From the NCBI GenBank assembly GCA_040768745.1, contig JAXGMI010000001.1, forward strand, positions 800,001-864,000: DNA of 64,000 bases, in the 5' to 3' direction. The stretch is from Desulfomicrobium sp. (GTDB lineage: Bacteria > Desulfobacterota > Desulfovibrionia > Desulfovibrionales > Desulfomicrobiaceae). Position numbers and translations under genes: made by a program. Positions 7,392 to 21,376 of this stretch are shown here, in pieces (position 1 is the first letter of the stretch; each line of letters opens with the position of its first letter). The notes beneath the pieces are model-generated. The model saw only the letters and a program-made list of their open reading frames with translations, was not told the origin of the DNA and ran no database searches.

Positions 7392-8252
7392 CTAAAGCGC
7401 AGCCCCCAATTCCTCCGGCGAAGCCATGACCGGCTCCAGCCCTTCTTCGCGCTCCACCAGCCTAAACCGCTCCTTGATGCGCGACAGCGATACGAGCTGA
7501 CCCTCCCGGGCCGACGGCGTGAGGAACGATTTCAGCTTCACCTCCAGCACCCTGGGGTTGAATTCGCCCTGGATGGCCTTGATTCCCTCGGTAATGATTC
7601 TTTGCAGAAGAAGCTCGTGATCCGTGTTTTCGCGAACGCGGGCCGACATGGGCAGAAGGATGAAATTGGCGATGAGCACGCCGTACAGGGTCGAAGTCAG
7701 GGCAATGGGAATAGTGGCCAGGACAACGGCGGTGTCGTCCACCCCGGACAGCATGCCAATGAGTCCTACGACGCTTCCGGCCAGCCCAATGGCCGGGCAG
7801 ATTTCGGCCATGACCCGGAGCACCCGCTCTGATTCGTCCCGACGCTGTTTGAAGAAGAACATTTCGGTGTGCAGGATGTCCTCGATCTGCGCTCTGGAAT
7901 AATTGTCCACCACCAGCCCCAAAGCCCGCCGCAGGAACATTATGGAGGTCTCCTTCTCGTCCTCGGCCAGGGTATGCAGGCCGCGGATCCTGCTCTTGAC
8001 CGAAAGATCAACCAGAACTTCCACGATCTCTGCCGGATCTTTGACTTTTGCCCGGTACACGGTGCGCACCACCCGGCATACGTGCCCGATCCTCTCCATC
8101 CTGAAACTGGCAATGGCCGCCCCCATGCCTCCGCCCAACACAACAAGGGCCCCGGCCACGTTGAAATACGCGGCCACGTTGCCGCTGCTGACAAATCCAG
8201 CGGCAAAAACGAGAATGCAAAGCAAAAGGCCGAAAAACGCTTTCCTCTCCAT
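7392..8252 (-). CDS. motA: MotA/PomA-family ion-channel (stator) subunit
   Basis: YFNVAGALVVLGG, PAIGLAGSVVGLIGML and ALTSTLYGVLIAN motifs. Confidence 0.88.
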   Translation of the reverse strand: MERKAFFGLLLCILVFAAGFVSSGNVAAYFNVAGALVVLGGGMGAAIASFRMERIGHVCRVVRTVYRAKVKDPAEIVEVLVDLSVKSRIRGLHTLAEDEKETSIMFLRRALGLVVDNYSRAQIEDILHTEMFFFKQRRDESERVLRVMAEICPAIGLAGSVVGLIGMLSGVDDTAVVLATIPIALTSTLYGVLIANFILLPMSARVRENTDHELLLQRIITEGIKAIQGEFNPRVLEVKLKSFLTPSAREGQLVSLSRIKERFRLVEREEGLEPVMASPEELGAAL

Positions 8253-8253
8253 G

Positions 8254-9126
8254 TCACACCCCCTGCCTCGATGCCGCGAGCCACTCCCTGAAGCCGCCAG
8301 CCTGTCCTCCGGATGAGGGCAGAGGATCCGTGGGGACTTCCGTGCTGAGCACGATTTCCAGCCGGCGGATCTCAACCTGTCCGGCCTCTCCCGCACTCGG
8401 GCTGCGATCCCCATACCCGACCAGAAGGACGCGGTTGGCCGGCAATCCGCCTTCCCGCATCAGGAATGCAGCCACCTCGGCCGCCCGGGCCATGGACAGC
8501 TTCCAGGGATCGACAAAATCGCCCAGAGGTTCTCCGGGCACAACATGTCCGACCACGGCCACAGCATGGGGCGCACTGCGCAGGATTCCGGTCAGGCCGA
8601 GAAGCTGGTTCTTCCCAGCGGTTTTGAGCGCAGCGGTCCCGGCCCCAAACAGAGAATCCCCAACCGAGGTGATGTGCACCGATTTTTCCGGTACAAGACG
8701 CACACGCAAAAAAGGCTCCAGCCCGTTGCGGTCGATGACATCGCGGATCCCATCGTGAATCCGGTCAAGAATGGATCCCGGAGAAACCTCCGTTCGCGGT
8801 GCCAAAACCATCAGAGGCGATTTCTCATCAGACAGGACCGGAACTTTCTTGGGCATCTGAAAGATATAGAGCGCAGCGAACATGACGAACATGGTCATCA
8901 TCAAATCTGACCATGCGATGGCCCACCCGGAAGATCTGGGGACTGTTTCCCGGGACATGATGTCAAAACGGTGACTGAGGACAGCAGCATCGGTCAGGGC
9001 AAACATGTCGTTGCTGCCTGCATTGCGCATGTTCGGCAACGCTGGGAGTGGCGATGGTTCCCCGGGCAAGGGCTCAACCTTGCGCAGGGTTGCCTGGCGG
9101 ATGATTTCCGGAGTTGGCGTGTGCAT
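8254..9126 (-). CDS. motB: MotB/PomB-like protein with a degenerate OmpA-like domain
   Basis: WAIAWSDLMMTMFVMF TM with the conserved Asp; LF..G.A.L, WKLSMARA..V and RRLEI; GGAGG RBS. Confidence 0.85.
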   Translation of the reverse strand: MHTPTPEIIRQATLRKVEPLPGEPSPLPALPNMRNAGSNDMFALTDAAVLSHRFDIMSRETVPRSSGWAIAWSDLMMTMFVMFAALYIFQMPKKVPVLSDEKSPLMVLAPRTEVSPGSILDRIHDGIRDVIDRNGLEPFLRVRLVPEKSVHITSVGDSLFGAGTAALKTAGKNQLLGLTGILRSAPHAVAVVGHVVPGEPLGDFVDPWKLSMARAAEVAAFLMREGGLPANRVLLVGYGDRSPSAGEAGQVEIRRLEIVLSTEVPTDPLPSSGGQAGGFREWLAASRQGV

Positions 9127-9148
9127 AGAGGACCTCCGGCAAGACTTT

Positions 9149-9164
9149 AGCCAATTCCATGCCA
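9149..9164 (-). promoter_or_regulatory. Candidate sigma54 -24/-12 promoter for motB-motA
   Basis: Minus strand TGGCATGGAATTGGCT with GG and GC at canonical spacing, just upstream of the RBS. Confidence 0.45.
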
Positions 9165-9263
9165 GAAAACAGAAAGAAGCGCTCCGCATATTTTTGCCAC
9201 CTTGCCCCATGCCCTGGAACAGAGTAGAAGGCGTTGTGACAACAATTTGAACCAGGAGGAACC

Positions 9264-9446
9264 ATGGCTATTGTTATCGACCACGATGAATGCATTGGCT
9301 GCGAAACCTGTGTTGAACTCTGCCCCGAAGTCTTTGCCATGATGGATGGCGAGGAAAAGGCCATGGTCAAGGCGCCGGACTCCACGGCCGATTGCGTCGG
9401 GGACGCCATTGACAGCTGTCCGGTGGGGGCCATCAGCAAGGAATGA
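9264..9446 (+). CDS. fdx: Single-cluster [4Fe-4S] ferredoxin
   Basis: [12 protein letters not shown]...CPVGAI, 60 aa, AGGAGGA RBS. Confidence 0.95.
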
Positions 9447-9469: not shown

Positions 9470-9494
9470 AAAGGGGGCCACGGTCCCCTTTTTT
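9470..9494 (+). terminator. Rho-independent terminator after ferredoxin
   Basis: AAAGGGGGCC-AC-GGTCCCCTTTTTT. Confidence 0.75.
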
Positions 9495-9512: not shown

Positions 9513-9541
9513 TTGCGATTTTCCGGCATTCCCACCACAAT
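9513..9541 (+). promoter_or_regulatory. Candidate sigma70 promoter of the VTC operon
   Basis: TTGCGA-N17-CACAAT, 8 nt before the ATG at 9550; no SD sequence. Confidence 0.35.
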
Positions 9542-9549
9542 GACAGTGT

Positions 9550-10257
9550 ATGCAAACCAACCCCAGTGCAGATCCCGTGGCATTCCGGACCGAGAAAAAA
9601 TATGTTCTTTACGCCCGGCAGGCACTCCTGGCCGAAGCCGTGCTCAAGGCGCACTGCCTGCCTGATCCGGTTTTTGCCCGGGCCTCGGTGCATTCCGTGT
9701 ACTACGACACCCTGGATCTGCAGTACCTGGCCGAAAAAATCGACAGCACCTACCTGAAGGCCAAGGTCCGGTTGCGCTGGTACGGAGACTGGGACTTCCT
9801 TCCCGATCCAGGCCCGGCTTTTCTGGAGGCCAAGATCAAGGAGGGCTGGAAGCAGCAAAAAATCCGCGTGCAGGTCGAATACGATGGCCGAACCCTGTCG
9901 GCCCTCCCCTTGAACACGCCGGAGATTTCGGGCCTGCCCTCCCGCTTGGCCGAGCTGGGTGTCGGGCTGTCCTTGGCCCTCCGGCCGGCATTCACCATCA
10001 GCTACCGCCGGATGCGGTTCGTTGACCCCATGACCGGAACGCGGCTGGCCCTGGATCAGGCCATCCATGTGTCAAAAATCAATCTGCCCTGCCTGGGGTC
10101 CGAAAAACGCACCCTGCCCATGGTGGTCATCGAGACCAAGGGAAGTCTGGACACCCTCCCGGCGTACCTTGCTCCCCTGGTGGCCATGGGCCTCAAGCCC
10201 GAGGCCTTTTCCAAATACCTGAGCTGCTATCAGATGCTGATGCAGCAACATCCGTAA
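9550..10257 (+). CDS. VTC-domain (polyphosphate polymerase-like, CYTH/TTM fold) protein
   Basis: R.E.KY, SVYYDT.DL, KVRLRWYG, FLE.K.K, RLALD, VIETK and FSKY motifs. Confidence 0.9.
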   Translation: MQTNPSADPVAFRTEKKYVLYARQALLAEAVLKAHCLPDPVFARASVHSVYYDTLDLQYLAEKIDSTYLKAKVRLRWYGDWDFLPDPGPAFLEAKIKEGWKQQKIRVQVEYDGRTLSALPLNTPEISGLPSRLAELGVGLSLALRPAFTISYRRMRFVDPMTGTRLALDQAIHVSKINLPCLGSEKRTLPMVVIETKGSLDTLPAYLAPLVAMGLKPEAFSKYLSCYQMLMQQHP

Positions 10258-10266
10258 GGAGACCGC

Positions 10267-10998
10267 GTGAACGACCTGCTGCCTTCCGGCATAGACGCAC
10301 TGTCCAACATCTACGAGGCCCTGATCAAGGCTGGTGTGTCCGGACACGAAAAAATGGAAAGCGTCGGCCTGACCACCTTCTTCATTCTGCTCGTGGTGTC
10401 TTTTTTCGCTTCGCTCTACATCTCCAGGCTGTACGTCCGCTTCTATCGCCCCCGCGGCACCGGGAGCCTGGCCTACCGCTCCTTTCCCCTGCTGGGAGTC
10501 TCCATCACAGCCATCTTCATCTGCGTGCAGTTTTCCCTGCCCCTGTCCCTCGGTCTCCTCGGCGCCCTGTCCATTGTCCGCTTCCGCACGCCCATCAAGG
10601 AACCGGAAGAAGTCGGATTCATCATGCTGACCATCGCCGCGGCCATCTCCTGCGCGACGTTCAACCTGATGTTCCTGCTCATTCTCCTGGCCGTGGCCAC
10701 CCTGGGACTCTTTCTCATCAACTGGCGGGGGATGCCCCTGGCCAACAGCGAGCAGGGCACAATCCTCGTCAATCTTCCCGGCACCGATGCAGGGACCGTC
10801 TCGGACTGCCTTTTGCCCACAGTTTTGGGGCTGGACGGCGTGCGGCTCATCTCCGTGGTGGAAACCCCTGAAGGTACGGCGGTGACGCTCCGTTTCGCCA
10901 AAGGGGGCTCCGACCTTCTGGCCGCGATGCGCGGCGCGGCCCTGAACTGTGCCAAGGATGCCACCGTGAGCATGTTCAACGACCAGGTCAGCATCTGA
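10267..10998 (+). CDS. DUF4956 membrane protein
   Basis: LSLGLLGALSIVRFRTPIKEPEEVGF signature, several TM helices, soluble C-terminal domain. Confidence 0.9.
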   Translation: MNDLLPSGIDALSNIYEALIKAGVSGHEKMESVGLTTFFILLVVSFFASLYISRLYVRFYRPRGTGSLAYRSFPLLGVSITAIFICVQFSLPLSLGLLGALSIVRFRTPIKEPEEVGFIMLTIAAAISCATFNLMFLLILLAVATLGLFLINWRGMPLANSEQGTILVNLPGTDAGTVSDCLLPTVLGLDGVRLISVVETPEGTAVTLRFAKGGSDLLAAMRGAALNCAKDATVSMFNDQVSI

Positions 10999-12563
10999 TG
11001 CGCCGGCTCCTGGGCCAGCCCTTGTTTCTCTTCCTTCTGCTCTGCGTGCTGGCCTTCCTTTTTTTCAGCACCGGACTGGACGACTGGGGTCAGCGCCAGG
11101 CTGAGCACATTGCCCTGTTACGCGATGATTTCGGCACTGCCCGCAAGGACAGCCTGCTCAAGAAGCTGGGACTGCCCAGGGTCACGCATCCCCAAACCGG
11201 ACACCTGGTGGAGGGTGCCAGAAACGACCTCAGCTCGCTGCCCGTTATGTCCCTGCGAGCAGTGGCCATCCGGGTGGCCGAAGCGGACCTATCAGACCCT
11301 GAAAAAGGGCTCCAGACCAACAGCCGCCAGCGAGGCCGGGAATGGGAGCGCCCGGCAGGCGTGGCCGTCCTGCGGAACGGGCAGGAACTCCTGGCCGCGC
11401 CGGCAGGCATCCGCCTCCAGGGCAACCGGGCCACCAGGGACATGCTGCACAGTTTTCGCCTCTATTTCCGGGCTAGCTACGGCGAGAACACGGTGCCCGG
11501 ATCGGCGTTCCTGGATGACGCACACATGAACGTCCGCAAGATTGTCCTGCGCAAGGAAAAGAACCCGGTGCCCGGATTCGTGACCATGCTGGCCTTTGAC
11601 GTGGCCAGAAGGGTTGGATCCATGACCCCGGACTATGCCCCGGTACACATGTTCCTGAACGGCCGCAGCCTGGGCCTCGGTCTGGCCAGTGAACACGTCA
11701 ACCGCACCCACTGGGAACGCCGGCTTGGGCACAGAAACTTCGCCTTCTATGTCCTGGAAGCTGAAAATTCTGTCCTGGACAGCGCGCAGTACAAGGCGCT
11801 GCGTTTCCGTCTCGATCCCTTCTTCGGGCTCTGGGAGTACGATCGCGTGGCAGAGATCCTGGATGTGAATGACTTCATGCGCGCCATGACCTGCTTCGCC
11901 TTCGTGCAATGGCAGGACTGGAACCAGGGCGCCCTGATCCTGGATCGGACCGAGGCCGGTCCGCGCTGGAAAAGCGTGCTGTGGGACGCGGATCTGGCTT
12001 TTGCCGGGTTGCGGTCAGACGGCGTGCCCGAAAACAGGGCCGGATGGAAGAACCTGCGCGATGCCCATGGACTGCGGGCCGCTGTTTTCAAGGGCATGTG
12101 GGAAAACAGTCAACAGTTCCGGGAGGAATTTCTGCGGCTCTTGAGCTGGACCATCAACCACCGCCTGACCAGGGCATGGATCGAAGAACGGATTCGACAC
12201 TACACCGGCCTGGAAACCGACAGCGGTCTGGACTGTTTCGACGCGGGGGTGGCCCTCACCTATCTCCTGCAGCGGCGTGTGGATCTCCTGGCCGAAACGA
12301 CCAGGGATCTGGGCGCTCCGGACGTGATCGCCTGCCGGGTCGAAAGCCCCCAACCCGTGGTGGTCGACGATGAAAGGGTCACGACAAGCTATGAAGGCCT
12401 CTATTTCCGGGGGCAGGCAATCACCCTGGCCCCACAGCCCCACGCATCGTTTTCCCACTGGATCGTTGACGAACGGCACGTCCACGAACCCCGTCTGACC
12501 CTCGAACTCCAAAGAGACACCGTGGTCAGGGCTGCATTTTTCCCTTCCGCCAATCCTTCCTAG
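10998..12563 (+). CDS. CotH-family atypical kinase, membrane-anchored or exported
   Basis: N-terminal hydrophobic anchor; GREWERP, GIRLQG, SFRLYFR..YG, LNG..LG, DW and W..vLWD.D motifs; C-terminal beta-rich F..W repeat; TGATG overlap with DUF4956. Confidence 0.85.
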   Translation: MRRLLGQPLFLFLLLCVLAFLFFSTGLDDWGQRQAEHIALLRDDFGTARKDSLLKKLGLPRVTHPQTGHLVEGARNDLSSLPVMSLRAVAIRVAEADLSDPEKGLQTNSRQRGREWERPAGVAVLRNGQELLAAPAGIRLQGNRATRDMLHSFRLYFRASYGENTVPGSAFLDDAHMNVRKIVLRKEKNPVPGFVTMLAFDVARRVGSMTPDYAPVHMFLNGRSLGLGLASEHVNRTHWERRLGHRNFAFYVLEAENSVLDSAQYKALRFRLDPFFGLWEYDRVAEILDVNDFMRAMTCFAFVQWQDWNQGALILDRTEAGPRWKSVLWDADLAFAGLRSDGVPENRAGWKNLRDAHGLRAAVFKGMWENSQQFREEFLRLLSWTINHRLTRAWIEERIRHYTGLETDSGLDCFDAGVALTYLLQRRVDLLAETTRDLGAPDVIACRVESPQPVVVDDERVTTSYEGLYFRGQAITLAPQPHASFSHWIVDERHVHEPRLTLELQRDTVVRAAFFPSANPS

Positions 12564-14098
12564 TGCGCTGCCTCGGGCATGTGCGCCCCGTGATCCGGGC
12601 GGCGGATGACCCACATGAACCCCGCCAGGCTGAGAAAGAACAGGGCCTGCACAAAAAAAACATCCACATAGGCCATGTATGCGGCCTGCTGCTGGACATA
12701 CTGGTAGATGACCCCCAGGGCCTCATGGGGGGTGAGATCCATGAGCCGTTCCAGGGCGTCCCGGGCCTGGGCCAGGGGCGGATCATAGGGGGTGAGATGC
12801 TCCACCAGCCGATGCTGGTGGAACTGGGCACGCCGCGCCAGAAGCGTGGTCACGAAGGCCGTTCCAAAGGATCCGCCCAGGTTGCGCAGCAGGCTGAAGA
12901 GGGCCGAAGCATTGTTCATGCTCTCGCGCGGAATGTAGGCCATGGTCAGAAAGGACAGGGGCACGAAGAAAAAGGCGATGCCAACTGCCTGCATGTTGCG
13001 CCCAAGAATGGCCGTGCCGATATCGATCCGCAGGGTGAAACGGGACATGAAGACGAGGGACAGGCCCGAGATGAGCAGACCCAGGCAGAGCAGCAAGCGT
13101 GCGTCGATCTTTTCCGTCAGCTTGCCGACCATCGGCAGCAGAAGGAGCATGATGGCCCCGCTGGGCCCCAGCACCAGCCCGGCCAGAAAGGAGGTGTAGC
13201 CCATCAGGTTCTGCAGATACATGGGCAGGAGTACGATGGACCCGAAAAAAGCAAAAAAGCCAAAAAACATGATCACGTTGCCCGCCGCAAAATTTCGATA
13301 CTGAAATGTGCGCAGATTGACGATCGGATTTGCATGCCTGAGTTCCCACCAGACAAGGACTGCAAGGCATACTCCGGCCAGGATGCTCAGGATGACGATC
13401 TGCTCCGAAGCGAACCAATCCTCCTGCTGACCCTTGTCCAGAACTATCTGCAGGCTGCCCAGTCCGACGGACAGGAGGGCCAGACCCAGGCAGTCGACCT
13501 TCTCTCCTGACAAACGGCGCTGCTGGTAGGGCGGATCGAAGATAAAGGCCCAGCACATGTACAGGGCGACCGCGCCGATGGGCACATTGATGTAGAAAAT
13601 CCAGATCCAGGAATAATTGTCAGTGATGTAGCCACCCAGAAGAGGGCCCAGGATGGGGCCGAGCACTGCGCCCATGGCGTAGATGGCCATGGCCAAGCCG
13701 CGCTGCTGGGGCGGAAAGGTTTCAAGCAGGATGGCCTGGGACATGGGCTGCAGCCCCCCTCCGCCGACCCCCTGGATGATGCGGAAAAACACCAGTGCCT
13801 CCAGGCTCTGGGCCAGGCCGCAGAGCATGGAGGACAAGGTGAACACCGCCACCGAGGCCATGAGGTAGTTCTTGCGACCCATCAGCCGGGCCAGCCAACC
13901 GCTCATGGGGATAATAACGGCGTTGGAAACCAGATAGGAGGTCAGGACCCAGGTCACCTCGTCCTGACCAGCGGACAGGGAACCCTGGATGTGGCTCAAG
14001 GCCACATTGGCGATGGACGTATCCAGGATCTCCAGCAGTGTCGGGATCATGACGCTCAACGTGATGAGCCACTTGCCCGTAACGCGATCCCTGGCCAT
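12560..14098 (-). CDS. emrB: DHA2 (EmrB/QacA) MFS efflux permease
   Basis: LD.SIANVAL, WVLTSYLVSNA, RIIQG.GGG, GP.LGP.LGG and WIFYINVPIG motifs. Confidence 0.93.
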   Translation of the reverse strand: MARDRVTGKWLITLSVMIPTLLEILDTSIANVALSHIQGSLSAGQDEVTWVLTSYLVSNAVIIPMSGWLARLMGRKNYLMASVAVFTLSSMLCGLAQSLEALVFFRIIQGVGGGGLQPMSQAILLETFPPQQRGLAMAIYAMGAVLGPILGPLLGGYITDNYSWIWIFYINVPIGAVALYMCWAFIFDPPYQQRRLSGEKVDCLGLALLSVGLGSLQIVLDKGQQEDWFASEQIVILSILAGVCLAVLVWWELRHANPIVNLRTFQYRNFAAGNVIMFFGFFAFFGSIVLLPMYLQNLMGYTSFLAGLVLGPSGAIMLLLLPMVGKLTEKIDARLLLCLGLLISGLSLVFMSRFTLRIDIGTAILGRNMQAVGIAFFFVPLSFLTMAYIPRESMNNASALFSLLRNLGGSFGTAFVTTLLARRAQFHQHRLVEHLTPYDPPLAQARDALERLMDLTPHEALGVIYQYVQQQAAYMAYVDVFFVQALFFLSLAGFMWVIRRPDHGAHMPEAAH

Positions 14099-14100
14099 GG

Positions 14101-15306
14101 CTAATCCAGATGAATGATCGGCACCACACTCATGCCCAGACGCAAGGACTCGGTGCCGTTGAGCGGATCAAGACCGATCCTGACCGGAATGCGCTGCACC
14201 ACTTTGACATAATTGCCCATGGCATTTTCCGGAGGGAAGAGGGAAAAGACCGCCCCGGTTCCGGCCATGACGGATTCGACCCAGCCAGTGAACTCTCGAC
14301 CCGGAAAGGCATCGACCTCGAGGCTCACCCGCTGTCCTGGGCGGACCCTGGCCAGCTGGGTTTCCTTGAAATTGGCCGTGATCCAAAGCTGGCCGTGATT
14401 GAGAGGCACCAAGGCCAGCAGTGGCTGGCCAGCAGACACCAGCTGCCCGACCTCGACCTTCTTCTTGGTGACGTGTCCGCTGACCGGAGCCAGAATACGG
14501 GTATATCCCAAATCCAATTCCGCTTTGCGCACCTTTTCCTTGGCCAAGACCACCCGCGCTTCCTGGGCCGCCACCTCCAGGTCCTTGATGCTGGCGACCT
14601 CGTGCCCGGTTCCGGCCAGCCCGATATTGGCCCTCAGGCTGGCTACGTTTTCCCGCAACGAGGCCAGGTTGCGCCCAGCCGCGGCGGCCTTGTCCCGGGC
14701 CCCGGCGGCCTGGGCCCTGGCGCTGTCCAGGGTGGTCTGCGCCGTGTCCAATGCAGATTGGGCAATGATCTGCTGGCGGCGCAGGGTCTCCAGTCGGCCA
14801 AAATTGAGTTCGGCGTTTCTCGACTCCGCCTCGGCGTGCAACGCAAATTGCCGTGCAGCAGCCTCCTCCAGGGCCGCCTGATCCAGGCTGCGCAGAAGAC
14901 TGTCCAGCTGGGCCCTGGCCCCGGCGACCTGCAGCTCCGTCTGCGTCTTTTGCAGGGGCACACCCCTGCGCAGGGAGGCCAGCTGGGCTTCGGCCGCTGC
15001 GAGATCAGCCCGGGCCTGGGCCACAGCCACCTCGTACCCCACGGGATCGAGCCCCAGAAGGGGTTGCCCTGCCTGGACCAGCTCATTGTCCAGCACGAGA
15101 TCCTCCTGGACATAGCCTGCCACGCGCGGAGTAATCTGATGGATCCACCCGTCCACAAAGGCGTCGTCCGTGGAGACCCGGTTCAGGCCCCGCACGTATT
15201 CGAAAATCCCGAATCCCGCTCCAAGCAGAACGAGACACAACAGAATGATCCGTTTCCATCCGGCCCGACCACTGGTTTCGAGGGACGTGTCCGATGCTGC
15301 GCTCAT
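14101..15306 (-). CDS. emrA: EmrA/HlyD membrane fusion protein
   Basis: STDDAFVDG, WITANFKETQL and PPENA.GNYVKVVQRIPVRI motifs. Confidence 0.93.
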   Translation of the reverse strand: MSAASDTSLETSGRAGWKRIILLCLVLLGAGFGIFEYVRGLNRVSTDDAFVDGWIHQITPRVAGYVQEDLVLDNELVQAGQPLLGLDPVGYEVAVAQARADLAAAEAQLASLRRGVPLQKTQTELQVAGARAQLDSLLRSLDQAALEEAAARQFALHAEAESRNAELNFGRLETLRRQQIIAQSALDTAQTTLDSARAQAAGARDKAAAAGRNLASLRENVASLRANIGLAGTGHEVASIKDLEVAAQEARVVLAKEKVRKAELDLGYTRILAPVSGHVTKKKVEVGQLVSAGQPLLALVPLNHGQLWITANFKETQLARVRPGQRVSLEVDAFPGREFTGWVESVMAGTGAVFSLFPPENAMGNYVKVVQRIPVRIGLDPLNGTESLRLGMSVVPIIHLD

Positions 15307-15377
15307 TGTTTCACCCTGGTCCAAAGATCAAATAACTGGCCGGTAAACCTGTCCCTCATCAATGGCAAGAGCGAAGT

Positions 15378-17859
15378 CTAGGGGGCAATCCGGGCGGCCC
15401 AGTCCACGGGCAGGCGCACGGCCTTTCCGGCCTTGTTGCGGAAGAGCAGATGGCCGTGACGGAGGCCGAACTCGAATAGATCGCGGGTCACGGCCACATC
15501 ATGGCGGCAGTACTCGAGGATTTCCCCCAACCTTCCCTCCTTCCACCAGGCCAGGGCCTGCATGCCGCTGGCGGTCTTGGCTGCGCCGAGGGTTTCCCTG
15601 GCCAAATGATCCAGGGACAGACGGTAGCCGAGGATGGCGTGGATGTCGGCCAGGATATCCAGGGTGGGCAACGTTGAAAAATCGAATCGGCTCAGCCCTC
15701 CGAGGACGGCGAAGTCGAAACGAAGGATGTTGAACCCGACCACCAGATCGTATTCGACCAGATCTCCGACCAGACGAGACACGTCCTCCTGCAGATACTC
15801 GCGAAACTCGCCCGAGACCGAATCGTGTACCACCACGCAGCTCACCCCCATCAGATCGGCTCTGTGCCAGCCACCGACCTCCTGGGCTGAGCGCCGGGTT
15901 TCCAGGTCCAGGACGGCGTAGCGAAAACCGTCAAGCATCCGTATTCCGGCTGCAACTGGGGCCTGTTGCCGGGACGACGGGGCACAGCCCTCAGCCATGG
16001 ACGTTTGCCCGGCCCGCGCAGCCGACCTTGGGCCCTGCACAGGCACAGCGGGAGGGGCAGCCTCGGCGGGCTGGAATGCACCTGGCCCCTCTCCGGCAAC
16101 ACCGGACTGGGGCCGCCCGCGTATGACCCCGTCCAGCAACCGCAGGGCTGCGCTCTTGGAAATGGGCCGGTTGCCTGACCCGCATTTGGGAGAGTGCACG
16201 CAGGATGGGCAGCCGGTCTCGCACCCACAAGAGCGGATGGCGGCCATGGTCCGCTCCAGCAGCCTTTCGTATTGAGCATACGCCTCGTCCACCAGACCGC
16301 AGCCTCCAGGGAGCCCGTCGTAGATGAAGATGGCCCCGGACCCGACCTGGGGGTGGAAGGGTGTTGAAATCCCGCCCAGGTCGTTGCGATCGGCCAGAAC
16401 CAAGAGCGGCATCATGCCGATGGCCGCATGCTCGATGGCGTGGATGCCCCCCATGAAGTGCACCATCTCCCTCTCCACCTGCCTCCGGAGGTCTTCGGGG
16501 ATGGCGATCCACACCCCGCGGGTGACGAAGACCAGGGGCTCCATGTCCAGCAGCTCGGTCCCCAGATTTTTCCCGCTGCGCACGCTGATGCGGTCGTAGC
16601 CTGTGACCTGATCCGTGACCCGCACCCGGCCCAGATGGACCATGGCCCCGAGCACGACCCTCGACGCGGCGATTTCGATGATCTCCGTGGACTTCTCATG
16701 ACGGACCCTGGTGTAATAGCCGACATTGGCCCGCCTGGCCCTCACCAGCCCCGCACCCAGGTCCAGATCTTCAACCAGATAGGTCTGGCCCCGGTGCAGG
16801 TAGACCGCTCCAGGATGGGTTTCGAGCACAGCCCGGAAGCGGTCCACCAACCCGATGCGTTCCCCGCTCTCCACATCGATGATGGGCAGGGTCGCACCAG
16901 TGCCGCGCAGGCTGACGTCCCGCTGCGGCTGTCGGGCCCTGGAGAAATACTCCTGCCCGTCCCCGCTGCGCAAAAGATCTCCATAGCGGGTCATTTCCGC
17001 GACGAGAGCGGCGTGTTCGCGGACCAAGGGCTCATCCCGCCCCAGGGAATGCTCGGCAGCCGCACAGCAGAGATGACTGGCCGCGATGACCGGGTTGCCG
17101 GGGTTGATCACCGCCCGTTCCGGCTGCATGGCGAAGAACTCGTCCGGGTTGTGCATGAAATACTGGTCCAGGGCATCCTCGTGTCCGATGAACACGGTGG
17201 CGGCCTCCTGGCCACCCCTCCCCACCCGCCCGGAACGCTGCAAAGTAGCCATGATGGAACCGGGATACCCGACCAGGATGCACAGATCCAGACCGCCTAT
17301 GTCGATCCCCAGCTCCAGGGCGCTGGTGGATATGACGGCCAGAAGCTCGCCTGATCCAAGCCTGGCCTCGATCTCCCGGCGCTCTTCGGGCAGGAAGCCT
17401 GCCCGGTAGGCGGGGATGCGTTCCCGCTGTCTGGCCTCGCGCTGCCCGGCCCACAGGGCTATGAGTTCGGTCATCTTGCGGGACTTGCAGTACACGATGG
17501 TCCTCAGACCCAGACGCAGTGCCTCCTGGAGCAATCCGATGGCTTTTTGGGCCGCGCCCTCCACGCCATTCATGAGCACGATGTGCTTGGGAGGACTCGC
17601 GGCCGTCCCCTCCAGCACGACTTCCATGGGCAGGCCGGTCAGGCTGGCGGCGAGCTCTGCCGGGTTGGCGATAGTGGCCGAGGAACAGACGAAGGTCGGC
17701 CGGGCGCCGTACAATTCACACAGGCGGAGCAGCCGCCGGAAGACCCAGGCCATGTGCGAACCCATCACGCCTCTGTAGGTATGCACCTCGTCCACAACGA
17801 CAAAATGGAGATGGGCGAAAAACCCGGCCCATTTTTCATGGCTGGGCAGAATGCCCAGA
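15378..17859 (-). pseudogene. C-terminal part of a DEAH-box helicase + DUF1998 + RNase H-like exonuclease (YprA/MrfA-YprB-like fusion), split by an IS
   Basis: DEVH, SAT, TSALELGIDIG and QRSGRVGR motifs; DUF1998 CGCETGCPSC; C-terminal DLET...GFN...FD...YCRHDV. Confidence 0.9.
17841..17859. repeat. Target-site duplication, left copy (19 bp)
   Basis: GCTGGGCAGAATGCCCAGA, identical to 19476-19494. Confidence 0.9.
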
Positions 17860-19475
17860 CAGACCACTGACAAACCCTCGTCACACTGTCCGGCGAGGGT
17901 TTGTTTTTTCTGACGATGTGTATTTTTCCTGAAATCGTTCAGGAGGCCCTTCTGGGATCAAATTGGGGCGTATTGGCGCTTCTGTTGTTGGAATATCCCG
18001 TAAATAAAGGACAGAATCATCCCGGCCATGGCGCCCGCCGGGCTTGCTGGCCTGCGGAGTCCCAACCTGGACAAGTGCAGCGCGATTTTCTTCATGTTGA
18101 ACGCGGCCGCACACAGCAGGCACTGCTCCAAGACCTTCGAGAGACCACGCATCCGGGCGTAACGATGCCCATGCAGTTCCTTGCAGTCGGCAAAGCTGCG
18201 TTCAACCGTTTCCTTGCGTCGGGCATAGATGGCCTTGCCACGCTCCGTCAGCCGGTTGGAGTCGATGCGTTCCCGACTATCTTCCCATACGTGGCGCGCT
18301 ATGACCCGTCGGCATATCTTGCTGGTCGTGCATCTCTCAAGAAGCTGACATGCTTTGCAAATCTTGGGATCCGAGGCGTATTCCCGGTAACCCGCCCGGT
18401 TGGTGGTTCGGTAACTCAAAAGGCAGTTTGCAGGGCAGACGTAGCAATCCACTGAGTCGTCGTAGAAAAAATCCTTGCGTCTGAAGCGGCCCGTGTTTTT
18501 TCCAAAACGACGGTAGCCAACCACTCCAAAAATCCCTCTCTCCTCAAGCCCTTTGCAGATTCCTGTCGTCGCGTAGCCAGCATCCAGTCCAACCGCCTCC
18601 ACTTCAAAACCAAATCGTTCGCGCTGTCGATCAAGACGATCAAGATACGGTATCGAGTCATGCACATTGCCTGGCGTCACGTACGTATCCGTGATCAGGC
18701 CATGAAGACCGTCCACCGAGCGGTGATCCAGAAAGAAGAACCCCTTGGGCTTGCCGTCCCGGTGCATGTAGCCAGACTCCGGGTCCGTCGTGCTCTGCTT
18801 GACCGTCTTGGTTTCGGGTTCCGGATCGTTCTCTTTCAACGCCTTCTTGCCGTGGTCGGCCCGGTCCTGGGCAACGTCCCGCTCCAGATCATCGATGTAA
18901 TCCCGCGTGCTCTTGGCAACCTCGGCTTCGACAAACTTGTTCTTGTTGGCGTTGGCCTTGAGGTGGGTCGAATCCGTGTACAGGGTACGACCGTCGATCA
19001 TCTTGCGGCGGATGGCCTGAACCACGATCTCGTCGAAAATCTCCTGGTAGACCGTGCTCTGGTTGAAGCGACGGCGGCGGTTCTGGCTGATGGTCGAGGC
19101 GTCGGGAATCTTGTCTTCCAGGCTGAAGCCCAAAAACCAGCGGTAGGCGACATTGACCTTGATCTCCTCAATCAGCCGCCGCTCACTGCGGATGCCGAAC
19201 AGATACCCCAGAAAGAGCATCTTGAAGAGCACTGTCGGATCAAGAGCCGGCCGGCCGTTGTCCGGACAGTACAGGTCTTTGACCTTGTCGTGGATGAAAC
19301 GGAAATCGATGAACTTGGTGATCTTACGAAGAAGATGATCTTTGGGAACCAAGCGCTCGATGCAGACGAATTCGTACTTCAGTTGTTTGGGTCCTGTGCT
19401 GCGTAACATGTAAGCTTTCATAACAAAACCCCCGTCATTTGACGAGGGTTTTGAGGTGACTTTGTCAGCAGTCTG
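17860..19475 (-). mobile_element. IS1182-family insertion sequence (1616 bp)
   Basis: Terminal IRs CAGACCACTGACAAA / CAGACTGCTGACAAA (13/15 match), flanking 19-bp direct repeat, single DDE transposase. Confidence 0.9.
17958..19421 (-). CDS. IS1182-family transposase
   Basis: LVPKDHLLRKI, NGRPALDP, GIRSERRL, DSTHLKANA, STTDPESG, GLDAGY and RKETVERSFADCK motifs. Confidence 0.93.
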   Translation of the reverse strand: MKAYMLRSTGPKQLKYEFVCIERLVPKDHLLRKITKFIDFRFIHDKVKDLYCPDNGRPALDPTVLFKMLFLGYLFGIRSERRLIEEIKVNVAYRWFLGFSLEDKIPDASTISQNRRRRFNQSTVYQEIFDEIVVQAIRRKMIDGRTLYTDSTHLKANANKNKFVEAEVAKSTRDYIDDLERDVAQDRADHGKKALKENDPEPETKTVKQSTTDPESGYMHRDGKPKGFFFLDHRSVDGLHGLITDTYVTPGNVHDSIPYLDRLDRQRERFGFEVEAVGLDAGYATTGICKGLEERGIFGVVGYRRFGKNTGRFRRKDFFYDDSVDCYVCPANCLLSYRTTNRAGYREYASDPKICKACQLLERCTTSKICRRVIARHVWEDSRERIDSNRLTERGKAIYARRKETVERSFADCKELHGHRYARMRGLSKVLEQCLLCAAAFNMKKIALHLSRLGLRRPASPAGAMAGMILSFIYGIFQQQKRQYAPI

Positions 19476-19494
19476 GCTGGGCAGAATGCCCAGA
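19476..19494. repeat. Target-site duplication, right copy (19 bp)
   Basis: GCTGGGCAGAATGCCCAGA. Confidence 0.9.
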
Positions 19495-19991
19495 TGCAGC
19501 ATGTCCGGATTGGTGAAGAGGATGTTCGGCGGATTCTGGCGGATGCGGGTCCGCTGCGAGGAAGAGGTGTCGCCGTCGTAGATAGCCGTTCGTGGCGTGG
19601 GGAAGAGGCTGGCGGCCAGACGGTCCAGGACTCGGCGCTGGTCCTGAGCCAGGGCCTTCAAGGGAAAGAGATAGAGGGCCCGGGCGCTGCTGTCTGCGTG
19701 ACAGGCCTCCAGAACCGGCAGGTTGTAGACCAGCGATTTGCCGCTGGCCGTAGGCGTGGCCACGACCACGTGCCGGCCGGCCCGGGCCAGATCCACGGCC
19801 AGGGCTTGATGGGCATAGAGTGCGCGCACTCCAAGCAAGTCCAGGGCCCGCTGCACCGGACCGGGCCAGGGCTTGGCCGGTGTGGAAAAGCGGGGAGACT
19901 GGGCCGGAAAAAAACGACGGCCGGCAAGGCAGGTGGCAAGCCAGGGAGTCTCCTCCACCAGGCGCAGAAATGCCCGCACGCCCGTGTCCAT
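19476..19991 (-). pseudogene. N-terminal part of the interrupted DUF1998 helicase
   Basis: Q motif LYAHQ, Walker A TPTASGKS, FPLKALAQDQ, YDGDT and TNPDML; ends at LGILPS, which repeats at the start of the C-terminal part. Confidence 0.9.
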
Positions 19992-19999
19992 GTGAGGAC

Positions 20000-21376
20000 T
20001 CAATTCCTGGCCGCTATCCTGTATTTTTTGAGCTTGTACTGTAGTAGACTCTTGGACACATCCAGCAGCTCGGCTGCTTTGACCTGCACAAAGCCGGAAT
20101 GGACCAACGCGCGCCGGATCAGGGCTGCCTCGATCTTCTCCAGGGTTTCGGACAGGTTGACCTTCAGGGGCAGAAGGTCCACGGCGCTCTTGAACTGCGT
20201 CTCCTCGTCCCGCAGTTCGGCCGGAAGGTCGTCCACGTCGATGGTGTCACGGCTGGAAAGGACCACGCAGCGCTCGATGACGTTCTCCAGCTGCCGCACA
20301 TTGCCCGGCCATTCGTAGGCTGAAAGATAGTCGATGGCCCCGGCGGTGAACCCGTGCATCTGCCGGTTGTTCTCCAGGGCAAATTTTTTCAAAAAATGGC
20401 TGGCCAGGATGGGGATGTCCTCGCGGCGCTCACGCAACGGCGGCAGATGAATATTGACCACGTTCAGGCGGTAGAACAGGTCCTCCCTGAACCGTCCCGC
20501 CGTGATCTCGTCCTGGAGATTCTTGTTGGTGGCGGCCACCAAACGAAAATCCACGGCAATGCTCTCGGTCCCTCCGACCCTTTCGATGACCCGCTCCTGC
20601 AAGACACGCAACAGCTTGACCTGCATTTCGGCCGATAATTCGCCGATTTCATCCAGAAAAAGGGTCCCCCCCTGGGCCAGTTCGAAACGGCCGCGCTTGA
20701 GGGCCACAGCGCCCGTAAAAGAGCCCTTCTCGTGGCCGAAGAGTTCGCTCTCCAGCACCCCGGGGTTGAGGGACATGCAGTTGACGGAAATGAACGGCAT
20801 CTCTTTCCGGTCTGAGGAGATATGGATGGCCCGGGCCACCAGCTCCTTGCCCGTGCCGGACTCGCCCGTGACCAGTACGGTGCTGCGTGTCGGCGCGACC
20901 TTGCCGGCCAGGGCCAAGACGTCCTGGATGGCCTTGGAGTTTCCGATGATGGTTTCCTTGCCGAATTTTTCGGCCAGGCTCTCGCGCAGAAGTCGGTTCT
21001 GCTGCTCGGCATGGGAAAGCTTCAATGCCTTGCGCACGGAAAGAAGGATCTCGTCATTGGCGAACGGCTTGGTGATGTAGTCGAAGGCCCCGGACTTCAT
21101 GGCCTCCACTGCCCGGTCGATGGTCCCGAAGGCGGTCATGATCATGACCGGAATGTGCGGATGCCCCTTGCGCACGGCCTCCAGCACCTCCTGCCCGGTC
21201 ATGCCCGGCATCTTCATGTCCGTGATGACCACGTCCACTTCGGATTCGTCCAGAAAGGTCATGGCCATGACCGGGTCTCCCAGCGCCGTGACCGTGTAGC
21301 CTTCCTCCTCCAGGATGGCTTCCAGGATGAGCAGATAGTTTTTTTCGTCGTCGATGATCAGGATATGATTGCCCAT
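20000..21376 (-). CDS. sigma54-dependent NtrC-family response regulator
   Basis: Receiver domain (IIDDE, D..MP, KP), GESGTGKE, GSFTGA, FLDEI, WPGNVRQL, Fis-type HTH. Confidence 0.95.
   Translation of the reverse strand: MGNHILIIDDEKNYLLILEAILEEEGYTVTALGDPVMAMTFLDESEVDVVITDMKMPGMTGQEVLEAVRKGHPHIPVMIMTAFGTIDRAVEAMKSGAFDYITKPFANDEILLSVRKALKLSHAEQQNRLLRESLAEKFGKETIIGNSKAIQDVLALAGKVAPTRSTVLVTGESGTGKELVARAIHISSDRKEMPFISVNCMSLNPGVLESELFGHEKGSFTGAVALKRGRFELAQGGTLFLDEIGELSAEMQVKLLRVLQERVIERVGGTESIAVDFRLVAATNKNLQDEITAGRFREDLFYRLNVVNIHLPPLRERREDIPILASHFLKKFALENNRQMHGFTAGAIDYLSAYEWPGNVRQLENVIERCVVLSSRDTIDVDDLPAELRDEETQFKSAVDLLPLKVNLSETLEKIEAALIRRALVHSGFVQVKAAELLDVSKSLLQYKLKKYRIAARN

What the first reader, a model, noticed from the sequence alone, without database searches (positions are those of the whole stretch)
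9550..12563. VTC-domain + DUF4956 + CotH-kinase operon: candidate extracytoplasmic phosphorylation system with its own phosphoryl-donor supply
Seen: three tightly coupled genes (9-nt gap, then a TGATG overlap) with their own candidate promoter after the ferredoxin terminator. They encode a cytoplasmic VTC/CYTH-TTM enzyme with intact basic and acidic tunnel motifs, a polytopic DUF4956 membrane protein with a soluble C-terminal domain, and an N-terminally anchored CotH-type kinase (WDxD motif, C-terminal beta-repeat). Known: the eukaryotic VTC complex couples polyphosphate synthesis to membrane translocation, and CotH is an atypical kinase described from Bacillus spore coats. Inference: in a presumably non-sporulating Gram-negative, whose periplasm lacks ATP, VTC + DUF4956 could act as a split polymerase/translocase delivering polyP or another phosphoryl donor to a periplasm-facing CotH that modifies envelope proteins or glycans. 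I know of no functional description of this triad.
Basis: partly seen in the sequence, partly recalled or inferred. Interest (0 to 1): 0.8.

Follow-up and report, generated by a model that had tools for sequence, protein, structure and literature searches.

The report
Candidate bacterial polyphosphate-export and kinase operon
Three real, tightly linked genes encode a yeast-type polyphosphate-making enzyme, a membrane protein and an outward-facing kinase-fold protein, which probably move phosphate chemistry outside the cytoplasm where ATP is scarce, although this gene set has been noted before and none of its activities has been tested.

Summary
The operon is real: VTC, DUF4956 and CotH all pass Pfam cut-offs, with the stated gaps. 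The three families occur in the same 12 of 41 relatives and are deleted together in two genomes. The VTC enzyme keeps all nine catalytic residues of yeast Vtc4. The near-complete genome (probably Desulfomicrobium) has no PPK1, PPK2, PPX or PelG match. CotH is N-terminally anchored and keeps both catalytic aspartates but lacks the catalytic-loop Asn. DUF4956 is a five-helix membrane protein with an ACT domain and no detected likeness to Vtc1. VTC-DUF4956 is the core; CotH is a frequent but separable partner. Best reading (about 0.38): membrane-coupled polyphosphate synthesis and export, feeding a periplasmic phosphotransferase. The triad is published as pel-operon accessory genes (Whitfield; Raju), function unknown, reported as not found outside pel; here it is pel-independent across many phyla. 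This scan has found it before on other DNA (239 notes, at least 222 genomes).

The parts
9470..9493 (+). Intrinsic terminator of the upstream ferredoxin gene (9264-9446)
   Evidence: 2 overlapping stems; shuffles mean 0.6; kept in relatives. Contigs of RNA libraries run across it in 3 of 4 runs
9513..9541 (+). Candidate sigma70-type promoter, -35 TTGCGA (9513-9518), 17 nt, -10 CACAAT (9536-9541)
   Evidence: below scan threshold; spacing and key bases kept in 9 of 9 distinct genus sequences
9550..10257 (+). VTC-domain (Vtc4-type tunnel) enzyme, soluble; likely start GTG 9577
   Evidence: PF09359 E 2.2e-20; profile hits Vtc4 3g3q at E 2.2e-22 over the full length; no hydrophobic segment; start alignment
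10267..10998 (+). DUF4956 inner-membrane protein: five predicted helices (residues 35-152) plus C-terminal ACT-like domain (159-243); invariant RxR and K111/R on the inferred cytoplasmic side
   Evidence: PF16316; AlphaFold2 pLDDT 86.8; ACT/MgtC-CTD matches Z about 8-9; conservation
10998..12563 (+). CotH-family kinase-fold protein with N-terminal signal anchor (about residues 9-25), D307 and D330, DWxQG loop, C-terminal InlB B-repeat-like domain
   Evidence: PF08757; profile hits 5jd9 at E 4e-32; anchor; motifs; C-terminal domain

Best explanation
VTC and DUF4956 form the core. The soluble Vtc4-type enzyme polymerises phosphate from cytoplasmic ATP (inferred from active-site identity). It docks on the cytoplasmic face of an oligomer of DUF4956, whose invariant basic residues lead the chain across the inner membrane (inferred by analogy only). 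The membrane-anchored CotH faces the periplasm (inferred from sequence) and uses the emerging polyphosphate, in place of ATP, to put phosphate or polyphosphate on an envelope acceptor (least supported step). In other lineages the same core feeds other outer partners. My estimates: polymerase 0.65; export through DUF4956 given that, 0.6; CotH using the product as donor given both, about 0.5. The stated confidence is for the synthesis-and-export core with CotH acting downstream in some way; the whole three-step chain is about 0.2.
For: All nine Vtc4 residues needed for synthesis (K200, R264, R266, K281, Y359, R361, E426, S457, K458; passage) align with K17, R74, R76, K95, Y152, R154, E195, S221, K222 and are invariant in 57 of 57 homologues. 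Vtc4 K294 and K428 are also kept 57 of 57, and only Vtc2/3/4 score in PDB. VTC lies near DUF4956 in 78 of 79 loci (the exception has only 82 nt upstream). VTC and DUF4956 trees share 31 of 36 well-supported splits over 75 loci. The three families occur in the same 12 of 41 relatives and were deleted together in two genomes. 47 of 47 CotH partners examined have an N-terminal hydrophobic segment. DUF4956 R105 and R107 are invariant in 124 of 124. One phylum relative has an HlyD-type adaptor and an outer-membrane efflux protein between DUF4956 and VTC (L096). The genome (99.99% complete) has no PPK1, PPK2, PPX or CHAD match, so cytoplasmic polyP would have no known consumer.
Against: No activity is shown for any bacterial member in the papers found. 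A TTM fold predicts little: AtTTM3 resembles Vtc4 but is a tripolyphosphatase. E15 (E in 56 of 57) sits where Vtc4 has T198 and hydrolases have a metal-binding Glu. DUF4956 has an MgtC-like build with an ACT domain, typical of regulators, and conserved acidic E114/E115 next to the basic motif. The CotH lacks the Asn after the catalytic Asp and has Q141/H151 where many homologues have basic residues, which fits a weak or dead kinase as well as a changed donor. In S. intermedius, deleting each gene left Pel and aggregation largely intact. Lack of PPK is general in this order (PPK1 1 of 41, PPK2 0 of 41), so it is not specific to triad carriers.
Confidence: 0.38

Rival explanations
1. Transmembrane regulatory module. 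DUF4956 acts like MgtC, a membrane regulator with a ligand-binding ACT domain. It tunes the VTC enzyme, whose product (cytoplasmic polyP, or a hydrolysis product) stays inside. CotH or a lectin-type domain is the outside sensor or partner, and nothing crosses the membrane.
For: TM plus ACT build and MgtC C-terminal matches (2lqj Z 8.3, 7qa5 Z 8.0); Atlas clusters with 10-13% MgtC hits; 24 of 43 longer DUF4956 proteins carry an N-terminal PF06439 domain; degenerate CotH loop; Raju et al. suggest the polyP stays cytoplasmic.
Against: No PPK or PPX in the genome to use or clear cytoplasmic polyP; an export adaptor and duct lie inside one such operon; only 2 of 124 members hit MgtC, best E 0.009; leaves an exported kinase fold without a donor.
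Confidence: 0.25
2. Inward pathway. CotH captures or cleaves outside polyP or phosphoesters, DUF4956 imports them, and VTC recovers ATP or phosphate by running backwards or as a hydrolase.
For: E15 retained at a hydrolase metal-site position; the genome lacks PPK2 and PPX, so VTC could fill that role; one locus has an outer-membrane barrel-like gene after DUF4956 (L095, E 8e-4).
Against: K197 and K222 are invariant as in the polymerase, and Lys458 is catalytic in Vtc4 but its counterpart is dispensable in AtTTM3; adaptor plus efflux duct in L096 points outward; no phosphate-uptake genes among 76 neighbours scanned, one metallophosphoesterase aside.
Confidence: 0.14
3. DUF4956 passes ATP or a VTC-made nucleotide polyphosphate to CotH, which works as an ordinary ATP-type protein kinase like Bacillus CotH.
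For: Bacillus CotH uses ATP; both catalytic Asp positions are kept at the same 23-residue spacing; many other triad CotH proteins keep the loop Asn.
Against: Does not explain a full polymerase active site invariant in 57 of 57; VTC-DUF4956 stands without adjacent CotH in L054, L065, L076 and G070.
Confidence: 0.12

Closest known systems
cotH / polyphosphate polymerase / DUF4956 accessory genes of Gram-positive pel operons (Whitfield, 10.1101/768473; S. intermedius SIR_1592-1594, Raju, 10.1101/2024.04.20.589940)
   Same: Same three families, contiguous; secreted CotH, cytoplasmic VTC, TM plus ACT membrane protein; function unknown.
   Different: Here no pel context (no PelG match in the genome), a Gram-negative host, order VTC-DUF4956-CotH, and a DWxQG-type CotH. 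Raju et al. did not find the set outside pel operons; it is found so here across many phyla.
Yeast VTC complex (Vtc4/Vtc3/Vtc1; PDB 3g3q, 7ytj, 8i6v)
   Same: Catalytic tunnel with all nine essential residues; a membrane partner with basic residues at the inferred cytoplasmic face.
   Different: No SPX domain, no fused membrane domain, no inactive Vtc2/3 paralogue; DUF4956 has five predicted helices plus ACT and no detected match to Vtc1; a kinase-fold third gene.
Bacillus CotH spore-coat kinase (PDB 5jd9/5jda)
   Same: Kinase fold (E 4e-32); D307/D330 at the spacing of B. subtilis D228/D251.
   Different: Signal anchor and C-terminal B-repeat-like domain; shorter catalytic loop without the Asn; non-sporulating host; no cotB/cotG-like neighbours in the window; B. 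subtilis has CotH but no VTC or DUF4956 match (controls).
MgtC/SapB membrane proteins
   Same: Membrane domain followed by an ACT-like domain.
   Different: Only 2 of 124 members hit PF02308, below significance; invariant RFR motif; strict linkage to VTC.

Membership tests
Vtc4-type polyP polymerase | VTC tunnel domain with Vtc4 as nearest solved relative | tested here: met
   only Vtc2/3/4 at significant E; 3g3q E 2.2e-22
Vtc4-type polyP polymerase | Nine catalytic residues K200, R264, R266, K281, Y359, R361, E426, S457, K458 | tested here: met
   list; alignment; 57 of 57 invariant
Vtc4-type polyP polymerase | No hydrolase acidic patch (second metal site) | tested here: inconclusive
   K197 at Vtc4 K428 and R13 at R196, but E15 (56 of 57) at T198; mapping to AtTTM3 glutamates inferred from motif spacing
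Vtc4-type polyP polymerase | Makes polyP from ATP | not testable with these tools
   needs an assay
Eukaryotic VTC complex | Catalytic subunit fused to SPX and membrane domains | tested here: not met
   235-aa soluble protein; 2 of 43 longer DUF4956 proteins carry VTC, both singletons, one visibly frameshifted
Eukaryotic VTC complex | Channel of Vtc1-type three-helix domains | tested here: inconclusive
   no Vtc chain among listed rows for the membrane-only model or the profile
Eukaryotic VTC complex | Polymerase bound to an oligomeric channel | not tested
CotH kinases | PF08757 domain, homology to 5jd9 | tested here: met
   59.7 bits vs cut-off 23.8; E 4e-32; Atlas TM 0.69-0.76 to CotH clusters
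CotH kinases | Two catalytic Asp (B. subtilis D228, D251) | tested here: met
   D307/D330 invariant in 24 of 24, 23 apart as and 5jd9
CotH kinases | Asn five residues after the catalytic Asp (metal-binding role recalled, not read) | tested here: not met
   5jd9 has DGFVHN; window has DWNQG, Gln may substitute
CotH kinases | ATP-dependent Ser/Thr phosphorylation | not testable with these tools
   needs an assay
pel-accessory cluster | cotH, VTC and DUF4956 contiguous | tested here: met
pel-accessory cluster | Contiguous with pelDEA_DA_FG | tested here: not met
   flanks are ferredoxin/motAB-like and MFS/HlyD; PelG 0 of 1 in own genome, control rings
MgtC family | Membrane domain plus C-terminal ACT-like domain | tested here: met
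MgtC family | PF02308 match | tested here: inconclusive
   2 of 124 members, best E 0.009; 10-13% of two Atlas clusters

The most novel reading that the evidence does not exclude
VTC plus DUF4956 is a prokaryotic two-part polyphosphate polymerase-translocase with a channel unrelated to Vtc1, and the DWxQG-type CotH is a polyphosphate-dependent kinase or polyphosphate transferase. Together they give non-sporulating bacteria a way to phosphorylate envelope targets without periplasmic ATP, and they are the only recognisable polyP source in a genome with no PPK or PPX.
Probability: 0.2. Interest if true: 0.88.

Novelty: new variant of a known kind. Interest (0 to 1): 0.5.

Why it matters
Thousands of non-sporulating bacteria appear to export CotH kinase folds, and how such enzymes would get a phosphoryl donor is open (own knowledge). 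If the VTC-DUF4956 pair makes and exports polyphosphate, it is a third route to bacterial polyP besides PPK1 and PPK2, a candidate prokaryotic counterpart of the yeast VTC complex, and a donor supply for envelope phosphorylation. This locus is a minimal three-gene, pel-free version in a genome with no PPK or PPX match, so any polyP there can be assigned cleanly. The score is held down because the gene set is published, the scan has met it many times, and nothing functional is shown.

Tried and rejected
Complex prediction of three DUF4956 chains with VTC: not available, no verdict. Structure search for a Vtc1-like fold in DUF4956: no Vtc chain in the listed rows for the full model or the membrane-only model (best Z 8.6 to an archaeal virus protein, within the range common for helical bundles); this does not exclude a relation. 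Single-sequence PDB searches gave nothing useful; NCBIfam gave no family for the three. Fusions as proof of interaction rejected: 2 VTC-DUF4956 and 4 CotH-DUF4956 proteins among 43 are singletons, several with frameshift-like text, and L045 is likewise split. The convergent MFS/HlyD pair was rejected as part of the system: opposite strand, and kept in genomes that lost the triad. Glycan context: 14 of 76 hand-picked same-strand neighbours, in 12 loci, have glycan-type domains; no background control, so not used as evidence. RNA-library contigs leave parts uncovered, for example 10214-10487 in all four runs; no conclusion drawn. Recent transfer into this genome rejected: GC 0.605-0.621 against 0.598 for the genome. 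The primary CotH structure paper (Nguyen 2016) was not held, so residue roles beyond D228/D251 are recalled. G020's empty site could not be read (contig end). Look-ups of earlier notes by place, sequence and a second word set gave nothing.
Full report
Observation. The three ORFs lie at 9550-10257, 10267-10998 and 10998-12563 on the + strand, with a 9-nt gap holding GGAG and a TGATG overlap. Pfam gives VTC (E 2.2e-20), DUF4956 (3.3e-10) and CotH (4.3e-16), all over cut-off; NCBIfam names none. A profile search of the whole genome finds one copy of each. Upstream are a ferredoxin with a terminator at 9470-9493 and a motA/motB-like pair; downstream is a convergent MFS/HlyD pair. The nearest relatives, at 78-80% identity, are Desulfomicrobium records, so the host is probably of that non-sporulating Gram-negative genus (inference; traits from own knowledge).

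Promoter, start, expression. The scan finds no promoter. A TTGCG(A/C), 17-nt, CAnnnT element is kept in 9 of 9 distinct genus sequences (14 rows, 5 duplicates; two Nitratidesulfovibrio loci were not retrieved). The relatives' ATG aligns with GTG 9577. Contigs from four RNA libraries of one study cover parts of all three genes; in 3 of 4 runs a contig runs from the ferredoxin across the terminator into VTC, and one bridges DUF4956 and CotH. These are contigs without a DNA control, so this is a hint only.

Linkage. Among 79 loci fetched with DUF4956, VTC is present in 78. A CotH kinase domain is present in about 70; 5 more hold only the N-terminal part of a long CotH type; 4 have none, one of them at a contig edge. 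Hosts include Desulfovibrionales, PVC-group bacteria, acidobacteria, spirochaetes, Fibrobacteres and others. In an unselected draw, VTC, DUF4956 and CotH ring in the same 12 of 41 genomes, 10 of 24 in the genus; kin are not independent. Of 14 control genomes, VTC and DUF4956 ring in the same three, and CotH in those three plus B. subtilis. In 121 phylum genomes the link is looser: VTC 6, DUF4956 4 over cut-off, CotH 4, all three in 3; two VTC-only hits sit on 2-4 kb contigs, and one CotH stands alone. VTC and DUF4956 trees over 75 loci (4 loci with short domains left out) share 31 of 36 well-supported splits. Of five triad-less genus genomes checked, two have the ferredoxin next to the MFS gene and keep about 14-16 codons of the cotH 3' end (0 of 300 shuffles each): the unit was deleted whole. 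One was unreadable and two lack the MFS gene.

Core and partner. VTC-DUF4956 stands without adjacent CotH in L054, L065 and L076, whose genomes have CotH elsewhere. In G070 (97% complete, 260 contigs) it is followed by a barrel-like gene and a Cthe_2159 protein, with no CotH match in the genome. In G137 the order is CotH, CotH, DUF4956, HlyD-type adaptor, outer-membrane efflux protein, VTC, lamin-tail protein. The pair is therefore the core and the outer partner varies.

VTC. Profiles hit only Vtc2/3/4 in PDB. The nine residues that the yeast cryo-EM preprint lists as binding metal and triphosphate (passages) align with K17, R74, R76, K95, Y152, R154, E195, S221, K222 and are invariant in 57 of 57 homologues. 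Martinez 2015 (PMC4641920; passages and one section) separates hydrolases by an acidic patch absent from Vtc4. The window protein has R13 and K197 at Vtc4 R196 and K428, but E15 at T198. It is polymerase-like with one hydrolase-type residue. The genome has no match to PPK1 (two domains), PPK2, PPX or CHAD, with controls ringing, and one separate CYTH gene. This lack is general in the order.

DUF4956. The model (pLDDT 86.8) has five helices from residue 35 to 152 and an ACT-like domain; the third helix is short. N-out topology is inferred from 24 of 43 longer homologues that carry an N-terminal PF06439 domain, with signal peptides judged by eye in those read. That puts the loops with R63/R71 and the invariant R105, R107 (124 of 124) and K/R111 in the cytoplasm. 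In yeast, basic residues line the cytoplasmic channel entrance (PMC9911596, one section). This is analogy: no homology to Vtc1 was detected, E114/E115 are conserved too, and the build is that of MgtC.

CotH. The profile hits B. cereus CotH at E 4e-32. D307 and D330 are 23 apart, like B. subtilis D228 and D251, whose mutants are inactive (PMC7821199, passages). All 47 partner CotH proteins examined (of about 80) have an N-terminal hydrophobic segment, 43 with the more positive charge before it; a related Atlas cluster carries a type IX secretion tail in 100% of members. An outward-facing domain is well supported. This clade has DWxQG or a close variant in place of the DGFVHN of 5jd9, and the Desulfomicrobium proteins have Q141 and H151 where many homologues are basic. 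A changed donor and a weakened enzyme both fit.

Literature. Whitfield et al. (10.1101/768473, passages) list cotH, polyphosphate polymerase and DUF4956 as pel accessory genes. Raju et al. (10.1101/2024.04.20.589940; abstract and two sections) describe the three proteins, suggest the polyP stays cytoplasmic, did not find the set outside pel operons, and show that deletions leave Pel and aggregation largely intact, with a small drop for the membrane gene; their supplementary tables could not be seen. PMC11677781 (passages) notes two VTC genes and a CotH in C. perfringens NELoc-2. Three other DUF4956 papers are expression tables (passages); PMC10657179 (passages) showed nothing on bacterial VTC. 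Searches found no functional study of a bacterial VTC protein or of the split-translocase idea; most subscription journals are not covered.

Earlier notes of this scan. 239 findings in at least 222 genomes hold the same words. They are unchecked leads; I confirmed only the adaptor-plus-duct and barrel variants, once each.

Verdict. Shown: a real, co-inherited three-gene unit outside any pel context, with a Vtc4-type active site and an exported CotH fold. Inferred: polyP synthesis, export through DUF4956, and use by CotH. It is a new variant of a published but uncharacterised gene set; interest 0.5.

Noticed in passing
window 15378-20003 (-): An MrfA/Hrq1-type DEAD-box helicase gene is interrupted by a transposase (DUF772 + DDE_Tnp_1_6), giving a helicase-transposase in-frame ORF.
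   Followed up: partly
window 12560-15324 (-): Convergent MFS plus HlyD pair (EmrAB-like, name recalled); its stop overlaps the cotH stop by 4 nt and it remains in genomes that lost the triad.
   Followed up: partly
window 7392-9210 (-): motA/motB-like pair standing apart from flagellar genes in this stretch.
   Followed up: no
G000 whole genome; C1:295962-296366: No PPK1, PPK2, PPX or CHAD match; one separate CYTH gene. PPK1 in 1 of 41 and PPK2 in 0 of 41 relatives.
   Followed up: partly
L101 and L102 (G018, G013), between ferredoxin and MFS gene: Empty sites keep the 3' end of cotH; L101 also keeps the -35 element.
   Followed up: yes
P0187-P0217: A family, named Anaerolineae in three records, fuses a signal peptide and PF06439 domain to DUF4956.
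   Followed up: partly
L011:2545-7391; L021:7764-15074: Tandem repeats of DUF4956 + CotH behind a single VTC gene.
   Followed up: no
L099 (G011:C28): One genus member carries a different triad, in order DUF4956, VTC, CotH, from another clade, suggesting separate acquisition.
   Followed up: partly
L094:2257-3818: Two VTC genes in tandem on a short contig of G072, with no DUF4956 match in that genome.
   Followed up: no
L096:3-11583: CotH, CotH, DUF4956, HlyD-type adaptor, outer-membrane efflux protein, VTC, lamin-tail protein, with no ordinary inner-membrane pump among them.
   Followed up: partly
control genomes: B. thetaiotaomicron, C. glutamicum and the archaeon M. acetivorans match all three families; adjacency not checked.
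   Followed up: no
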